DNA of 64,000 nucleotides from a virus, in IMG/VR virus record IMGVR_UViG_3300022555_000010, positions 87,774 to 151,773 of that record; one strand, written 5' to 3'. Of the stretch, positions 11,369 to 51,991 are shown in pieces. Position 1 is the stretch's first letter; each line of letters begins with the position of its first letter. The notes under the pieces were generated by a model that ran no database searches, was not told where the DNA came from, and saw only the letters and a program-made list of their open reading frames with translations. The position numbers were made by a program, and so were the translations under genes.

Positions 11369-11454
11369 GCTCGAATGGTGGAATGGCAGACACGTAGCCC
11401 TCAGAAGGCTATGGCCGTAAGGTTGTGGAGGTTCAAGTCCTCTTTCGAGCACCA
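11369..11454 (+). tRNA. tRNA-Leu(CAG)
   Basis: TAGCC-CTCAGAA-GGCTA, long variable arm, CCA. Confidence 0.95.
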
Positions 11455-11533
11455 GTGGATAGGGTGGAATTCCCTCGTGGGTCCGAATCCCACTCCGAGC
11501 AATCGGATGGCTGAGTGGTTTAAGGCAATCCAC
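11455..11533 (+). ncRNA. circularly permuted tRNA-like RNA (compact, YrlA-like module)
   Basis: Order: GTGGAT, variable arm, T arm GTGGG-TCCGAAT-CCCAC, acceptor TCCGA-GCAA-TCGGA closed by a tetraloop, D arm TGGCTGAGTGGTTTAAGGC, ATCCAC. Confidence 0.7.
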
Positions 11534-11539
11534 AGTTTT

Positions 11540-11576
11540 GGAAGGATGGCAGAGTGGTCTAATGCGGCGGTCTTGA
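11540..11576 (+). pseudogene. 5' half of interrupted tRNA-Ser(TGA)
   Basis: GGAAGGA TGGCAGAGTGGTCTAATGC GGCGGT CTTGA, then breaks. Confidence 0.85.
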
Positions 11577-11644
11577 TTATTGCAATTAAAAGTTGATAAT
11601 TCAACTCTTGTAGAGAGTAGTCAATACTATAAGGGAGAATTATT

Positions 11645-12106
11645 ATGCCAAGCAGGCTGTATTCGAGGGAAGTTCTTGAGCCGGTTGTTATAAATAGCAG
11701 ATCTTTTCGAGATTTGACGATAAGGCTGGGTAAGAAACCACATGGAGGGTTGATAAATCATATAAAAAAGATTGTTGTTGGATTGGGAATAGATTGTTCG
11801 CATTTCAATCGTGGGGCTTGGAATAAGGGAGTGGTTTGGACTGGAAGAAGATCGGCTGAGGAAATTTTTTCGGGAGGAAAGATAGAGCCTGCCTATCGGT
11901 TGAAGAGGGCGTTATTAGAGATAGGTCGTGAGTGGAGTTGCGAGGTTTGTGGAATTAAAGATTGGATGGGGAAAGAAATAGACTTTGAGATTCATCATAT
12001 TGATGGGGACAAAAAGAATAATACAATTGTAAATTTGAGGATTGTTTGTCCTAATTGTCATTCTCAGAGTGGAAATTCAAGATTCAAGGGAAGGAAACAT
12101 GGCTGA
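11645..12106 (+). CDS. HNH endonuclease
   Basis: CEVC...EIHHIDGDKKNNTIVNLRIVCPNCHS; TGA stop inside downstream tRNA. Confidence 0.9.
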   Translation: MPSRLYSREVLEPVVINSRSFRDLTIRLGKKPHGGLINHIKKIVVGLGIDCSHFNRGAWNKGVVWTGRRSAEEIFSGGKIEPAYRLKRALLEIGREWSCEVCGIKDWMGKEIDFEIHHIDGDKKNNTIVNLRIVCPNCHSQSGNSRFKGRKHG

Positions 12107-12181
12107 GTGGTCTAAGGCGGGTGTTTTGAAAACATCAGATGTTAATAGCATCCGTAGGTTCAAATCCTACTGTTTCCGCCA
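12093..12181 (+). tRNA. tRNA-Ser(TGA)
   Basis: GGAAACA/TGTTTCC, GGTGT-TTTGAAA-ACATC, long arm, GCCA. Confidence 0.92.
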
Positions 12182-12182
12182 G

Positions 12183-12237
12183 TTGAAAACCGGAGTACCG
12201 AGAGGTATCGGGGGTTCAAATCCCTCTCCTTCCGCCA
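12183..12237 (+). pseudogene. 3' half of interrupted tRNA-Ser(TGA)
   Basis: TTGAAAACCGG, variable arm, GGGGG-TTCAAAT-CCCTC, TCCTTCC-GCCA, which pairs perfectly with GGAAGGA at 11540. Confidence 0.85.
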
Positions 12238-17055: not shown

Positions 17056-17379
17056 ATGAAACAAGAACTGATAGATCTATGGCAGCAGATGGCCGATCTG
17101 ACAAAGGAAAAGTGTCAGAAGTCCTGTAGGAATATGGGAGCATGTTGCAGTGGAGAATACTGTGAACTCGCCGCCGAGACGATGGAGAAGGCCGGTGAGA
17201 AGGTTCCCCCGATGCCTTTCGTAGTGGACGGGAAGTGTTCTATTCCTCCTCATTACAGGCCGATATGTGCATTACATCAGTGTGATATTGGCAGTCTTGG
17301 GTTTATGAAGGGGGACCCGGACTTGACAAAGAGATATTTTGATTTGAGATTCAAGTTGGAAGACTTGGCAGAATTTTAA
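17056..17379 (+). CDS. Cys-rich hypothetical protein
   Basis: CQKSC..GACC..YC...C...RPICALH. Confidence 0.6.
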   Translation: MKQELIDLWQQMADLTKEKCQKSCRNMGACCSGEYCELAAETMEKAGEKVPPMPFVVDGKCSIPPHYRPICALHQCDIGSLGFMKGDPDLTKRYFDLRFKLEDLAEF

Positions 17380-17542
17380 TTCCGATAGTACCTTCAGCAA
17401 TGGGATACTTCTAAAAAAACAGGTGCCCGAAAGGGCGTGAAGGTTCGAGTCCTTCCTCTGTGGCTAATAACTGCGGAGTGGTGGAATTGGCAGACACGCC
17501 TGCAAAAAAAGACCCATTGTGATTTTCGGTATTGTAGGAATT
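17378..17542 (+). ncRNA. YrlA/Y-RNA-like ncRNA: long bulged terminal stem plus permuted tRNA-Leu-like module
   Basis: AATTCCGATAGTACC/GGTATTGTAGGAATT and TCA(G)CAATGGG/CCCATTGTGA stems; A7 linkers; module 17420-17502 runs variable arm, T arm, loop-closed acceptor, D arm. Confidence 0.75.
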
Positions 17543-50503: not shown

Positions 50504-51991
50504 ATGGATATTGTTGCAGAACTCAACGCTATTGCCAGGGAAATTAAGGCTTCACCTTCTGAGAAGGAAGTGGAGCGTCTGATGAAAAGTGTTCTACGTG
50601 GAACGGTTTTTGCCAATAAGACTCACGCGGTCGGTGGCTATGTGAGAGACGAGTTGTTGGGAATTGACGCAAAAGACCTGGATATTGTCGTTGAAATGAA
50701 GGATGGGGCTGAGAAACTAACCAATTGGTTGCATCAGTTATTTCCGGTTGAGACATCTACCCCGAGAAGATTGGGTGCCGGGTATCCTATCTGGCAGATC
50801 GTTTTCAAAGCCAATGTTGTCCATAACGATGAGGAATATGCCACAGAAGGGGCAACAATCGAGTTCGTTGATACTCAGAAGGAATCATTCCCGGACCCTA
50901 AAAGTCGGCAGAGAGTTGTTGAGTATGGGACTTTGAAGGAGGATATTGAGCGGAGAGATTTCACAGTCAATATGTTGCTCAAGGATTTGTCCACAGGGGA
51001 GGTTGTAGACCTGACGGGGACGAGTAGACAGGATCTTCAGGATGGTGTCCTACGCGGGCACCCAGGGGTTGATTTTGACAAGATACTGAGGGATGACCCG
51101 CTTCGGATGCTTCGGCTTGTCAGGTTCCAGGCAAAATACGGTTGGAATATTCCAATGGACGTTTTGAAGGCGGTCAGGAGGAATGCTTCCAGGATTGAGA
51201 TAATGTCCGGGGAGAGGATTCAGGGCGAGTTGGTCAAGATGATGGAATTGGGAAAGTTAGCACAGGGAATCAGGATGATGAAGGCTGTAGGGTTACTTCA
51301 GTATGTTTTACCCGAGGTCCAGGCGATGTCCGGGGTAGAACACGAATATTCCAAGGGATCACACCAAGAGGGGGACGTTCTCCGGCACACTCTGATGGTG
51401 CTTCAAAATGCTAAGCCGGGGGTTGAAAGTCAACTTGCGGCCTTATTGCATGATGTTGGCAAGCCAGATTCTCAGGATATTTTAGATGGGACGATTCGGT
51501 TTATAGGTCACGAGAAGGTATCCGGGGAGATAGCCGAAGCGATCTTGAGACGGCTGAAGTTCGATTCTTCGACGATTACGAGGGTGAGAGGGATAGTCGA
51601 GGGACATATGAGGCCACACCAATTGTCGAGGTCTGAAGCCGGGCCTTCAGCACTTCGGAGATTCATACGGGATGTTGGAGCCGAACTGGTGGGAGCAATC
51701 ATGGATTTAGCGGAAGCCGATTGTTTGGGGACAATCCCTCCGAGAAATTTGATACCAGATTTACGAAAGGAAATTGATGCTTTAATGGCCCCGGTTCAAA
51801 AGGCCGAAGAATTACCGATTGATGGTAAGGATATCCAAAGGATTTTAAAGATAGGTCCAGGCAAGCAGATAGGAGATATGCTTAAGTTGTTGAAGGACAA
51901 GAAGTTCGAGATGGGGCAAGACGGTATAGAAATGACCAAAGACATTGCGGAAAATTTTATAATCGAACGCTATAGCGGAGGGGCACGATGA
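50504..51991 (+). CDS. cca: CCA-adding tRNA nucleotidyltransferase with HD domain
   Basis: VGGYVRD..DLDIV, EDIERRDFTVN, DDPLRMLR..RF, SGERI, LLHDVGKP. Confidence 0.9.
   Translation: MDIVAELNAIAREIKASPSEKEVERLMKSVLRGTVFANKTHAVGGYVRDELLGIDAKDLDIVVEMKDGAEKLTNWLHQLFPVETSTPRRLGAGYPIWQIVFKANVVHNDEEYATEGATIEFVDTQKESFPDPKSRQRVVEYGTLKEDIERRDFTVNMLLKDLSTGEVVDLTGTSRQDLQDGVLRGHPGVDFDKILRDDPLRMLRLVRFQAKYGWNIPMDVLKAVRRNASRIEIMSGERIQGELVKMMELGKLAQGIRMMKAVGLLQYVLPEVQAMSGVEHEYSKGSHQEGDVLRHTLMVLQNAKPGVESQLAALLHDVGKPDSQDILDGTIRFIGHEKVSGEIAEAILRRLKFDSSTITRVRGIVEGHMRPHQLSRSEAGPSALRRFIRDVGAELVGAIMDLAEADCLGTIPPRNLIPDLRKEIDALMAPVQKAEELPIDGKDIQRILKIGPGKQIGDMLKLLKDKKFEMGQDGIEMTKDIAENFIIERYSGGAR

What the first reader, a model, noticed from the sequence alone, without database searches (positions are those of the whole stretch)
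11455..11533. Second, minimal permuted tRNA packed directly behind tRNA-Leu(CAG)
Seen: begins at the base after the Leu CCA: GTGGAT, arm AGGG..CCCT, T arm GTGGG-TCCGAAT-CCCAC, a 5-bp acceptor TCCGA/TCGGA capped by a GCAA (GNRA) tetraloop, D arm TGGCTGAGTGGTTTAAGGC, ATCCAC closing a 6-bp stem. The 79-nt unit has no anticodon, no CCA and no long Ro-type stem. The shortened, tetraloop-capped acceptor argues against a chance join of two tRNA remnants. Inference: released by processing of flanking tRNAs as an elbow mimic, under control of the attenuator.
Basis: partly seen in the sequence, partly recalled or inferred. Interest (0 to 1): 0.7.

Follow-up and report, generated by a model that had tools for sequence, protein, structure and literature searches.

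The report
Conserved back-to-front tRNA mimic in phage
A large uncultured phage carries, wedged between two genes of its tRNA operon, a 79-base RNA gene built like a serine-type tRNA with its acceptor end sealed and its anticodon loop missing; a related phage keeps the same fold with quite different letters, so it is a working RNA, most likely a tRNA look-alike that binds a tRNA-recognising protein.

Summary
Window 11455-11533 (+) folds as described: a 6-bp closing helix, a variable arm, a T arm, a 5-bp acceptor capped by GCAA, and a Ser-type D arm. It has no anticodon loop and no acceptor CCA.

It is not a rearrangement scar. A related phage (G003, portal 72% identical) has a 91-nt counterpart at the same place, between tRNA-Leu(CAG) and tRNA-Ser(TGA).
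- 19 of the 38 paired bases differ between the two copies, yet none of the 19 comparable pairs is broken. Nine pairs changed on both sides (P<1e-6 under random substitution).
- The acceptor there is 7 bp and is capped by UUCG.
- U8, A14, G15-C48 and G18G19 are kept in both.

The closest known design is the tRNA-like domain of bacterial YrlA Y RNAs. This unit lacks the Ro60-binding stem and motif, and scores 16 bits against Rfam YrlA (threshold 69).

Relatives encode Ro60. This phage encodes RtcB and a CCA-adding enzyme.

The function is inferred, not shown. My best reading is a handle-less tRNA-body decoy or adaptor cut out of the tRNA precursor.

Only two independent copies were found. The scan has already noted related permuted tRNA mimics in other phages. 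I rate it a new variant of a known kind.

The parts
11455..11460 (+). 5' strand of the 6-bp closing helix (GTGGAT), the equivalent of the 3' strand of a tRNA anticodon stem plus the 38/32 pair
   Evidence: In G003 it is GACGGG/CCCGTC, with 4 of 6 pairs changed on both sides.
11461..11475 (+). Long (class II) variable arm: AGGG-TGGAATT-CCCT
   Evidence: G003 has a longer arm capped by UUCG.
11476..11476 (+). C48, the partner of G15 (Levitt pair)
   Evidence: Read. It is C in both phages, and G15 is also kept in both.
11477..11493 (+). T arm GTGGG-TCCGAAT-CCCAC, with C instead of U at position 55
   Evidence: G003 has GGGGG-TTCAAAT-CCCTC; pair 50-64 changes from T-A to G-T.
11494..11507 (+). Closed acceptor stem: TCCGA / TCGGA capped by the GNRA tetraloop GCAA
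   Evidence: G003 has CTTGTCC / GGACGAG capped by UUCG. Three pairs changed on both sides and one on one side.
11508..11509 (+). U8 and G9 connector
   Evidence: Identical (TG) in both phages.
11510..11526 (+). Ser-type D arm GCT-GAGTGGTTTAA-GGC, with A14, G15 and G18G19
   Evidence: the best match is the D arm of the phage's own tRNA-Ser(TGA), 19 of 20 bases. In G003, pair 12-23 changes from T-G to A-T.
11527..11527 (+). Position 26 (A; G in G003)
11528..11533 (+). 3' strand of the closing helix (ATCCAC)
11369..11454 (+). Upstream neighbour tRNA-Leu(CAG). Its encoded CCA abuts the unit.
   Evidence: G003 has the same neighbour, with a 2-nt spacer.
11534..11539 (+). 6-nt spacer AGTTTT between the unit and the resident tRNA-Ser(TGA)
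   Evidence: The spacer is GTAT in G003.
11540..11577 (+). Downstream neighbour: the 5' half of the resident tRNA-Ser(TGA), split in this phage by an HNH + tRNA-Ser cassette. The 3' half is at about 12186-12237.
   Evidence: The two halves joined are 82% identical to G003's intact tRNA-Ser(TGA); the cassette's own tRNA is 63% identical.

Best explanation
Shown:
- The 79 nt are a gene for a small structured RNA that is a circularly permuted, tRNA-Ser-derived cloverleaf.
- The order is anticodon-stem 3' strand, long variable arm, T arm, acceptor stem closed by a stable tetraloop, D arm, anticodon-stem 5' strand.
- There is no anticodon loop and no CCA end.
- Selection has kept the fold.

Inferred:
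- It is transcribed as one cistron of the phage tRNA operon (leader, tRNA-Phe, tRNA-Leu(CAG), unit, tRNA-Ser(TGA), tRNA-Val).
- It is freed by the enzymes that mature its neighbours. RNase P cutting at the 5' end of tRNA-Ser would leave a 4-6-nt 3' tail. An endonucleolytic cut and trimming at the CCA of tRNA-Leu would set the 5' end.
- It folds into an L-shaped tRNA body.
- It acts in trans by occupying a protein that recognises the tRNA elbow or class-II body but cannot process it, because the sites of chemistry (anticodon loop, CCA end) are absent.
- The most likely target is a tRNA-cleaving or tRNA-sensing host factor, with the RNA acting as a competitive inhibitor or decoy. Alternatively the target is a tRNA-binding partner of the phage's own RNA-repair or Ro60 machinery.

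The confidence given (0.45) is for the whole statement including the inferred decoy/adaptor mechanism. That the unit is a real, selected, permuted tRNA-like RNA gene I hold at about 0.9.
For: Structure:
- The fold of the unit and of its G003 counterpart gives the same architecture.
- The two copies sit in the same position in a fully collinear tRNA cluster.
- The two units are 58% identical. That lies inside the 56-82% range of the real tRNAs of the two clusters.
- 19 of 38 paired bases differ, and 0 of 19 pairs are broken. Nine pairs are compensatory on both sides. About 10.6 broken pairs would be expected by chance (P<1e-6).
- Both acceptors are closed by extra-stable tetraloops (GCAA, UUCG).
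- U8, A14, G15-C48 and G18G19 are kept.

Ancestry:
- The D arm matches the phage's tRNA-Ser.
- G003's variable and T arms match phage tRNA-Ser genes.

Context:
- There is no promoter-like site of its own.
- The phage invests in tRNA supply and repair: 16 tRNAs, 10 of them class II; RtcB; a CCA-adding enzyme.
- Ro60/TROVE genes are present in relatives, including G003.

Precedent:
- The YrlA tRNA-like domain is a circularly permuted tRNA with a closed acceptor and a true L-shape (10.1101/312249; PMC4201824).
- Hughes et al. proposed that this domain, which is not cut by the anticodon nuclease, could act as its competitive inhibitor (PMC7790460).
Against: - There is no expression, end-mapping or binding datum.
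- Only two independent sequences are known. More distant relatives with about 30 tRNAs each (G008, G009) lack it.
- No partner protein is encoded next to it.
- No sequence outside the universal tRNA core is conserved that would point to a specific binder.
- Acceptor length (5 versus 7 bp), variable-arm length and T-loop position 55 (C versus U) all differ between the two copies.
- The host and its defences are unknown.
Confidence: 0.45

Rival explanations
1. A cis-acting element of the tRNA precursor. The compact tRNA-shaped fold serves only as a spacer or processing guide. It keeps tRNA-Leu and tRNA-Ser folding independently and positions the cuts that create the Leu CCA end and the Ser 5' end. 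The excised RNA has no function of its own.
For: It is packed 0-2 nt after the Leu CCA and 4-6 nt before tRNA-Ser in both phages. The two spacers sum to 6 nt in each. It has no promoter of its own. Phage tRNA clusters are known to be matured as multi-tRNA precursors by RNase P (general knowledge from T4).
Against: Other tRNA pairs in the same cluster lie 9-15 nt apart with no such element (Phe/Leu, Cys/Tyr, Leu/Leu). A spacer would not need the complete set of tRNA core contacts, a class-II variable arm and a sealed acceptor, all of which are kept through about 40% sequence change.
Confidence: 0.17
2. A Y-RNA-type partner of the phage Ro60 protein (a YrlB-like companion of the longer YrlA-like RNA at 17378-17542). 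It would be bound through its terminal helix and single-stranded 3' tail.
For: TROVE/Ro60 genes are present in three relatives, including G003, which carries the unit. A longer permuted tRNA module on a roughly 25-bp stem lies 6 kb downstream in this window. Bacteria with Ro60 usually have two or more Y RNAs (PMC4201824).
Against: The closing helix is only 6 bp, and its sequence is not conserved (4 of 6 pairs changed). There is no GNCGAAN0-1G motif in either copy. Rfam YrlA gives 16.2 bits against a threshold of 69. In G003 the Ro60 gene is about 65 kb away. G008 has Ro60 but no unit. No Ro60 gene is found in the G000 record, though that region is simply not in the record.
Confidence: 0.15
3. 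A precursor of a two-piece or re-joined tRNA-like molecule. The acceptor cap would be opened by RNase P and a CCA added by the phage enzyme, as in Mycobacterium smegmatis YrlA. Alternatively the two ends would be ligated across the anticodon stem. Either route would give an RNA that can be charged or otherwise used.
For: G003's acceptor is 7 bp, starts G1-C72, G2-C71, A3-U70, and is capped by only 4 nt. A 7-bp acceptor is what makes M. smegmatis YrlA an RNase P substrate (PMC4201824). The phage encodes a CCA-adding enzyme and RtcB.
Against: In this window the acceptor is only 5 bp plus GCAA, which by the same paper's argument is a poor RNase P substrate. No anticodon-like loop would arise: the joined spacers would read AGUUUU or GUAUGA, without U33. 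RtcB needs 3'-phosphate and 5'-OH ends, which RNase P does not make. RtcB was not found in the relatives' records.
Confidence: 0.07
4. A non-functional scar. It would be the inner halves left from a tandem duplication of tRNA-Ser, or from endonuclease-driven rearrangement in a cluster full of HNH cassettes.
For: Duplication followed by loss of the outer halves is the natural origin of any circular permutation. In this window the 3' strand plus cap reads TCCGAGCA, like an intact Leu-type 3' end without CCA.
Against: It is conserved at the same site in G003, with zero broken pairs despite 50% change in paired bases. Both copies have stable tetraloop caps. It diverges at the same rate as the working tRNAs around it.
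Confidence: 0.03

Closest known systems
YrlA Y RNAs of bacteria and mycobacteriophages (Rfam RF02553; Chen et al. 2014, PMC4201824; Wang et al. 2018, bioRxiv 10.1101/312249)
   Same: The effector domain is a circularly permuted tRNA in the order variable arm, T arm, loop-closed acceptor stem, D arm. It keeps the tRNA core contacts and its two ends lie in the anticodon stem. It probably evolved from tRNA and is sometimes encoded beside tRNAs. Ro60 genes occur in this phage clade.
   Different: There is no Ro60-binding stem and no GNCGAAN0-1G motif. The RNA is only 79-91 nt. The Rfam model scores it 16 bits against a threshold of 69. It is not encoded next to a Ro60 gene; it is one cistron inside a tRNA operon, touching the CCA of the preceding tRNA. 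It has a class-II (Ser-type) long variable arm.
Mycobacterium smegmatis YrlA processing (PMC4201824)
   Same: A permuted tRNA mimic with a 7-bp acceptor, as in the G003 copy. It is cut by RNase P in the acceptor loop and then receives CCA.
   Different: The copy in this window has a 5-bp acceptor plus GCAA, so such cutting is unlikely to be the conserved feature.
Circularly permuted tRNA genes of Cyanidioschyzon merolae and other algae (Soma et al. 2007; from my own knowledge, cited in PMC4090602)
   Same: The 3' half is encoded upstream of the 5' half, and the two are joined through the acceptor ends.
   Different: Those genes yield complete tRNAs with an anticodon, through a circular intermediate made by the splicing endonuclease and ligase. 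This unit has no anticodon loop and no bulge-helix-bulge motif.
Permuted tRNA mimics beside Ro60-like or DUF7873 genes in phages, noted earlier in this scan (e1-4038101, e1-3433650, e1-2703945)
   Same: Phage-encoded, closed-acceptor, permuted tRNA look-alikes, some of them inside tRNA clusters. One member of the double-module family turned up here by chance (L145).
   Different: Those RNAs carry a conserved 'handle' helix or repeat track and sit beside a partner protein gene. This unit has neither.
Stable non-tRNA small RNAs of the phage T4 tRNA cluster (species 1 and 2 / rnaC, rnaD; from my own knowledge, not checked here)
   Same: Small stable RNAs of unknown function, co-transcribed and co-processed with phage tRNAs.
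   Different: They are not, to my knowledge, permuted tRNAs with sealed acceptors.

Membership tests
YrlA (Rfam RF02553) | tRNA-like domain in the order V arm, T arm, closed acceptor stem-loop, D arm, with tRNA core nucleotides | tested here: met
YrlA (Rfam RF02553) | GNCGAAN0-1G motif near the 5' end, and an extended stem that binds Ro60/Rsr | tested here: not met
   Reading of both copies finds no such motif. The terminal helix is 6 bp and not conserved in sequence.
YrlA (Rfam RF02553) | Covariance-model score at or above the curated threshold (69 bits) | tested here: not met
   16.2 bits, E = 0.1, model positions 29-81 only. YrlA is not listed at E <= 10.
YrlA (Rfam RF02553) | Encoded within about 4 kb of a Ro60/TROVE gene on the same strand | tested here: not met
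   In G003 the TROVE gene (about 59 kb) and the unit (about 124.2 kb) are on the same strand but about 65 kb apart. The G000 record has no TROVE match, and the relevant region is missing from the record.
Ordinary tRNA, or a tRNA dimer giving a false positive | One or two complete cloverleaves with anticodon loops, detectable by tRNA finders | tested here: not met
   ARAGORN and Rfam tRNA call nothing in 11455-11533. The 3' half abuts the CCA of tRNA-Leu, and the 5' half is followed after 6 nt by another tRNA start.
Permuted tRNA gene (algal type) | A complete tRNA, including the anticodon loop, is recovered once the ends are joined | tested here: not met
   Joining the ends with the flanking spacers gives AGUUUU or GUAUGA, with no U33-NNN-purine loop.
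tmRNA (including two-piece permuted forms) | Alanine-type acceptor with CCA, plus a tag reading frame | tested here: not met
   ARAGORN finds no tmRNA in the window or in G000. The acceptor is sealed.

The most novel reading that the evidence does not exclude
A free-standing, Ro60-independent 'anticodon-less' tRNA body that phages express from their tRNA operons as an RNA decoy. It would soak up a host tRNA-cleaving or tRNA-sensing defence protein, or divert a class-II tRNA-binding enzyme, and cannot itself be cut or charged. That would be an RNA-based anti-defence tool working alongside spare tRNAs, RtcB and the CCA-adding enzyme.
Probability: 0.25. Interest if true: 0.8.

Novelty: new variant of a known kind. 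Interest (0 to 1): 0.55.

Why it matters
Phage tRNA clusters are usually read as codon-supply or anti-nuclease spare parts. A conserved cistron in such an operon that is tRNA-shaped but cannot decode or be charged suggests these clusters also make regulatory or decoy RNAs.

This unit is the smallest form of the YrlA design that I know of. It isolates the tRNA-like 'effector' domain, whose binding partner is still unknown even for bacterial YrlA (10.1101/312249). It is therefore a clean bait for finding that partner, and a direct test of the published idea that such domains inhibit anticodon nucleases (PMC7790460).

It also shows how a permuted RNA can arise from a tRNA-Ser duplicate and then be refined: the acceptor trimmed and capped with a tetraloop.

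Tried and rejected
Searches that found no further copies:
- Exact 25-mer of the unit in IMG/VR: none.
- T-loop/short gap/Ser-type D-loop pattern: 20 hits, almost all tRNA dimers.
- A wider pattern: swamped by dimers and stopped at 120 rows. It missed even G003 and gave only unrelated candidates L145 and L158.
- The 3' end of tRNA-Leu(CAG) as an anchor. In IMG/VR it found only G003. In metagenomes it found 40 loci, of which 39 were bacterial tRNA-Leu genes and one was an identical copy of this phage.
- The 5' end of tRNA-Leu in prokaryote genomes: none.
- The CoaC protein as an anchor: no relatives.
- An alignment of the neighbouring 148-aa ORF family: only N-terminal motif matches in unrelated phages.
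- GenBank phages by blastn: only tRNA matches.

About 25 homologues of the neighbouring ORF in Logan/ENA/JGI, on contigs up to 342 kb, could therefore not be inspected.
- The single-sequence covariance model R1 found G003 only weakly and misaligned its closing helix. I counted the pairs with a hand-segmented alignment in a script instead. No count of structure pairs or R-scape-type test was run.

Readings rejected:
- A scar (see rivals).
- A link between the GGUCCGA string in the T arm and the vertebrate Ro60 contact motif, because the string is absent from G003.
- Meaningful pairing between the unit's TCCGAGC and the 5' acceptor strand of tRNA-Leu seen in a long-context fold (z = 0.65, and not conserved in G003).
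- A homologue of the protein next to the L145 double mimic: none in G000.

Full report
**What is there.**

The window is part of an IMG/VR virus record (G000, 151.8 kb, estimated 72% complete). It comes from a large uncultured phage with terminase, portal, many HNH endonucleases and 16 tRNA genes at window 10.4-25.9 kb.

RNAfold returns that architecture as the minimum-free-energy and centroid structure:
- a 6-bp closing helix
- a 4-bp variable arm with a 7-nt loop
- one unpaired C
- a 5-bp T arm with a 7-nt loop
- a 5-bp acceptor closed by GCAA
- UG
- a 3-bp D stem with an 11-nt loop
- one A
- the closing strand

The folding energy alone is not unusual (z = -1.3), so energy is not the argument. 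No tRNA finder calls a tRNA here. A strict descriptor for 'closing helix, T arm, hairpin, D arm' finds two places in the genome: this unit and the module inside the longer YrlA-like RNA at 17378-17542. It finds none in 30 shuffled genomes.

**Ancestry.**

The 5' half is closest to the D arm of the phage's own tRNA-Ser(TGA), with 19 of 20 bases matching. The 3' half is closest to tRNA-Ser 3' halves. The variable and T arms of the G003 copy match tRNA-Ser genes of Caulobacter jumbo phages. The unit is therefore a permuted derivative of a class-II, Ser-type tRNA. It most simply arose by tandem duplication of the neighbouring tRNA-Ser and loss of the outer halves (inference).

**The decisive comparison.**

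Relatives were found through the portal protein. One of them, G003 (IMGVR_UViG_3300047491_000255, portal 72% identical), has a collinear tRNA cluster: Phe, Leu-CAG, Ser-TGA, Val, Leu-TAA, Ser-CGA, Asn, Cys, Tyr, Ser-GCT, Leu-CAA, Leu-GAG, Leu-TAG.

Between its tRNA-Leu(CAG) and its tRNA-Ser(TGA) lies a 91-nt sequence (L028:19184-19274, minus strand) that folds into the same architecture. That tRNA-Ser is intact, with no HNH cassette. The G003 unit consists of:
- closing helix GACGGG/CCCGTC
- a longer variable arm capped by UUCG
- T arm GGGGG-TTCAAAT-CCCTC
- a 7-bp acceptor CTTGTCC/GGACGAG capped by UUCG
- UG
- D arm GCA-GAGCACGGTTGAA-TGC

The two units are 58% identical. That is within the range of the bona fide tRNAs of the two clusters, 56-82%.

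Of the 19 base pairs that can be compared:
- 9 are unchanged
- 1 changed on one side (C-G to U-G)
- 9 changed on both sides
- none is broken

With 19 of 38 paired bases substituted at random, 10.6 broken pairs are expected. No trial in a million kept all pairs. U8, A14, G15-C48 and G18G19 are kept in both copies. Both acceptors end in an exceptionally stable tetraloop, though of a different class.

**Limits of the comparative evidence.**

Only two independent copies are known. An identical copy of the G000 version occurs in another metagenome contig (L066).

More distant relatives (portal about 60% identical) with about 30 tRNAs each, G008 and G009, have no such unit. This holds by descriptor and by a covariance model built from the unit, both on their clusters and on their whole records. 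Other relatives are fragments without the cluster.

**Context that bears on function.**

The unit has no promoter-like site of its own. It lies downstream of a leader with a terminator-like hairpin that is also present in G003. It is therefore probably one cistron of the tRNA operon (inference).

It abuts the CCA of tRNA-Leu (0 nt here, 2 nt in G003) and precedes tRNA-Ser by 6 nt here and 4 nt in G003.

The phage encodes:
- RtcB (G000:1107-2522)
- a CCA-adding enzyme (window 50504-51991)
- a tRNA set dominated by class-II species: five Leu, four Ser and Tyr

No TROVE/Ro60 gene is in the G000 record. Three relatives, including G003, encode one; in G003 and G002 it lies next to a tmRNA and a tRNA-Met. 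That whole neighbourhood is simply missing from the incomplete G000 record.

**How it most likely works.**

Shown: a conserved, tRNA-shaped fold without an anticodon loop or a free CCA end.

Inferred: it is excised from the precursor by the enzymes that mature its neighbours, and it acts by binding a factor that recognises the tRNA elbow or the class-II body.

The closed acceptor and the missing anticodon loop remove both sites at which tRNA enzymes and tRNA-directed toxins act. The simplest role is therefore a non-consumable competitor. For the YrlA tRNA-like domain the same idea has been put forward: it is not a substrate of the anticodon nuclease and could be its competitive inhibitor (PMC7790460). 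Its true partner is still unknown (10.1101/312249).

I give this decoy/adaptor reading about 0.45. The rivals are:
- a purely cis-acting processing element (0.17)
- a Ro60 partner (0.15)
- a precursor of an opened or re-joined tRNA-like molecule (0.07)
- a scar (0.03)

**Comparison with what is known.**

The design is that of the YrlA effector domain (PMC4201824). Membership in YrlA fails on three tested features:
- no Ro-binding motif or stem
- an Rfam score of 16 bits against a threshold of 69
- no adjacency to Ro60

It is not an algal-type permuted tRNA gene, because no anticodon can be recovered. It is not a tRNA dimer artefact, which Chen et al. warn about, because neither half belongs to a complete tRNA.

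Earlier notes of this scan describe permuted tRNA mimics beside Ro60-like or DUF7873 genes in many phages. Those carry a handle or repeat track and a neighbouring protein gene, and this unit has neither.

I therefore class it as a new variant of a known kind: a handle-less, minimal, operon-embedded permuted tRNA mimic.

Noticed in passing
window 17378-17542 (module 17420-17502); L028:15786-15925 (-): A longer YrlA-like RNA: a permuted Leu-type tRNA module on a long bulged stem (fold z = -3.7). In G003 the homologous spot, after the homologue of ORF 17056-17379, has a structured 140-nt region (z = -3.4). That region contains GGCGAAG but has no recognisable tRNA module.
   Followed up: partly
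window 11540-12237; L028:19092-19179 (-): The resident tRNA-Ser(TGA) is split in its anticodon loop by an HNH endonuclease gene plus a second tRNA-Ser(TGA). G003 has the intact gene. The joined halves are 82% identical to G003's gene; the cassette's tRNA is only 63% identical.
   Followed up: partly
G000:1107-2522 (L110) and window 50504-51991: The phage encodes RtcB RNA ligase (228 bits) and a tRNA nucleotidyltransferase (CCA-adding enzyme). Together with 16 tRNAs this amounts to a tRNA repair and supply kit. RtcB was not found in the records of five relatives.
   Followed up: partly
G003:58945-59751 (L235:3277-5112, -), G002:91901-92137, G008:76121-76894: Ro60/TROVE genes are present in three related phages. 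In G003 and G002 (G008 was checked and has neither nearby) the gene sits next to a tmRNA gene and a tRNA-Met. No Y RNA was seen immediately downstream of the G003 gene, which ends at a terminator.
   Followed up: partly
L029:7224-7307 (+) (G001): A tRNA-like gene with a normal acceptor stem and CCA, but with its anticodon arm replaced by a long stem capped by UUCG (ARAGORN 'tRNA-???'). It is the mirror image of the unit studied here. It sits after tRNA-Met, where G003 has its Ro60 gene.
   Followed up: no
L145:11604-11671 and about 11735-11800 (IMGVR_UViG_3300010413_000002): Two tandem permuted tRNA-like modules in an AT-rich phage, separated by repeats of TTCCTAT and followed by a 468-aa ORF with no Pfam match. 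The first module has a 7-bp acceptor capped by TTAA. It resembles the 'double tRNA mimic' family noted earlier in the scan.
   Followed up: partly
L158:1448-1519 (IMGVR_UViG_3300031784_000059): A possible second minimal permuted unit between tRNA-Arg and tRNA-Ile in an AT-rich phage tRNA cluster: T arm, 5-bp hairpin, Ser-type D arm. Its closing helix is weak, so a decayed tRNA pair is not excluded.
   Followed up: no
L019:10892-10951 (IMGVR_UViG_3300029780_000150): A T-loop plus a Ser-type D-loop mounted on a perfect 12-bp stem, with almost no acceptor. It may be another kind of elbow mimic in an unrelated virus contig.
   Followed up: no
L235:8762-8850 (-); L030:6216-6286 (-): A twister-P5 ribozyme match above threshold (48.6 bits) in G003. 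A near-threshold HDV-like ribozyme match (37.8 versus 44 bits) directly beside the tmRNA gene in G002.
   Followed up: no
window 11454-11540; L028:19180-19276: The spacers on the two sides of the unit sum to 6 nt in both phages (0+6 and 2+4). This may be chance or a processing constraint.
   Followed up: no
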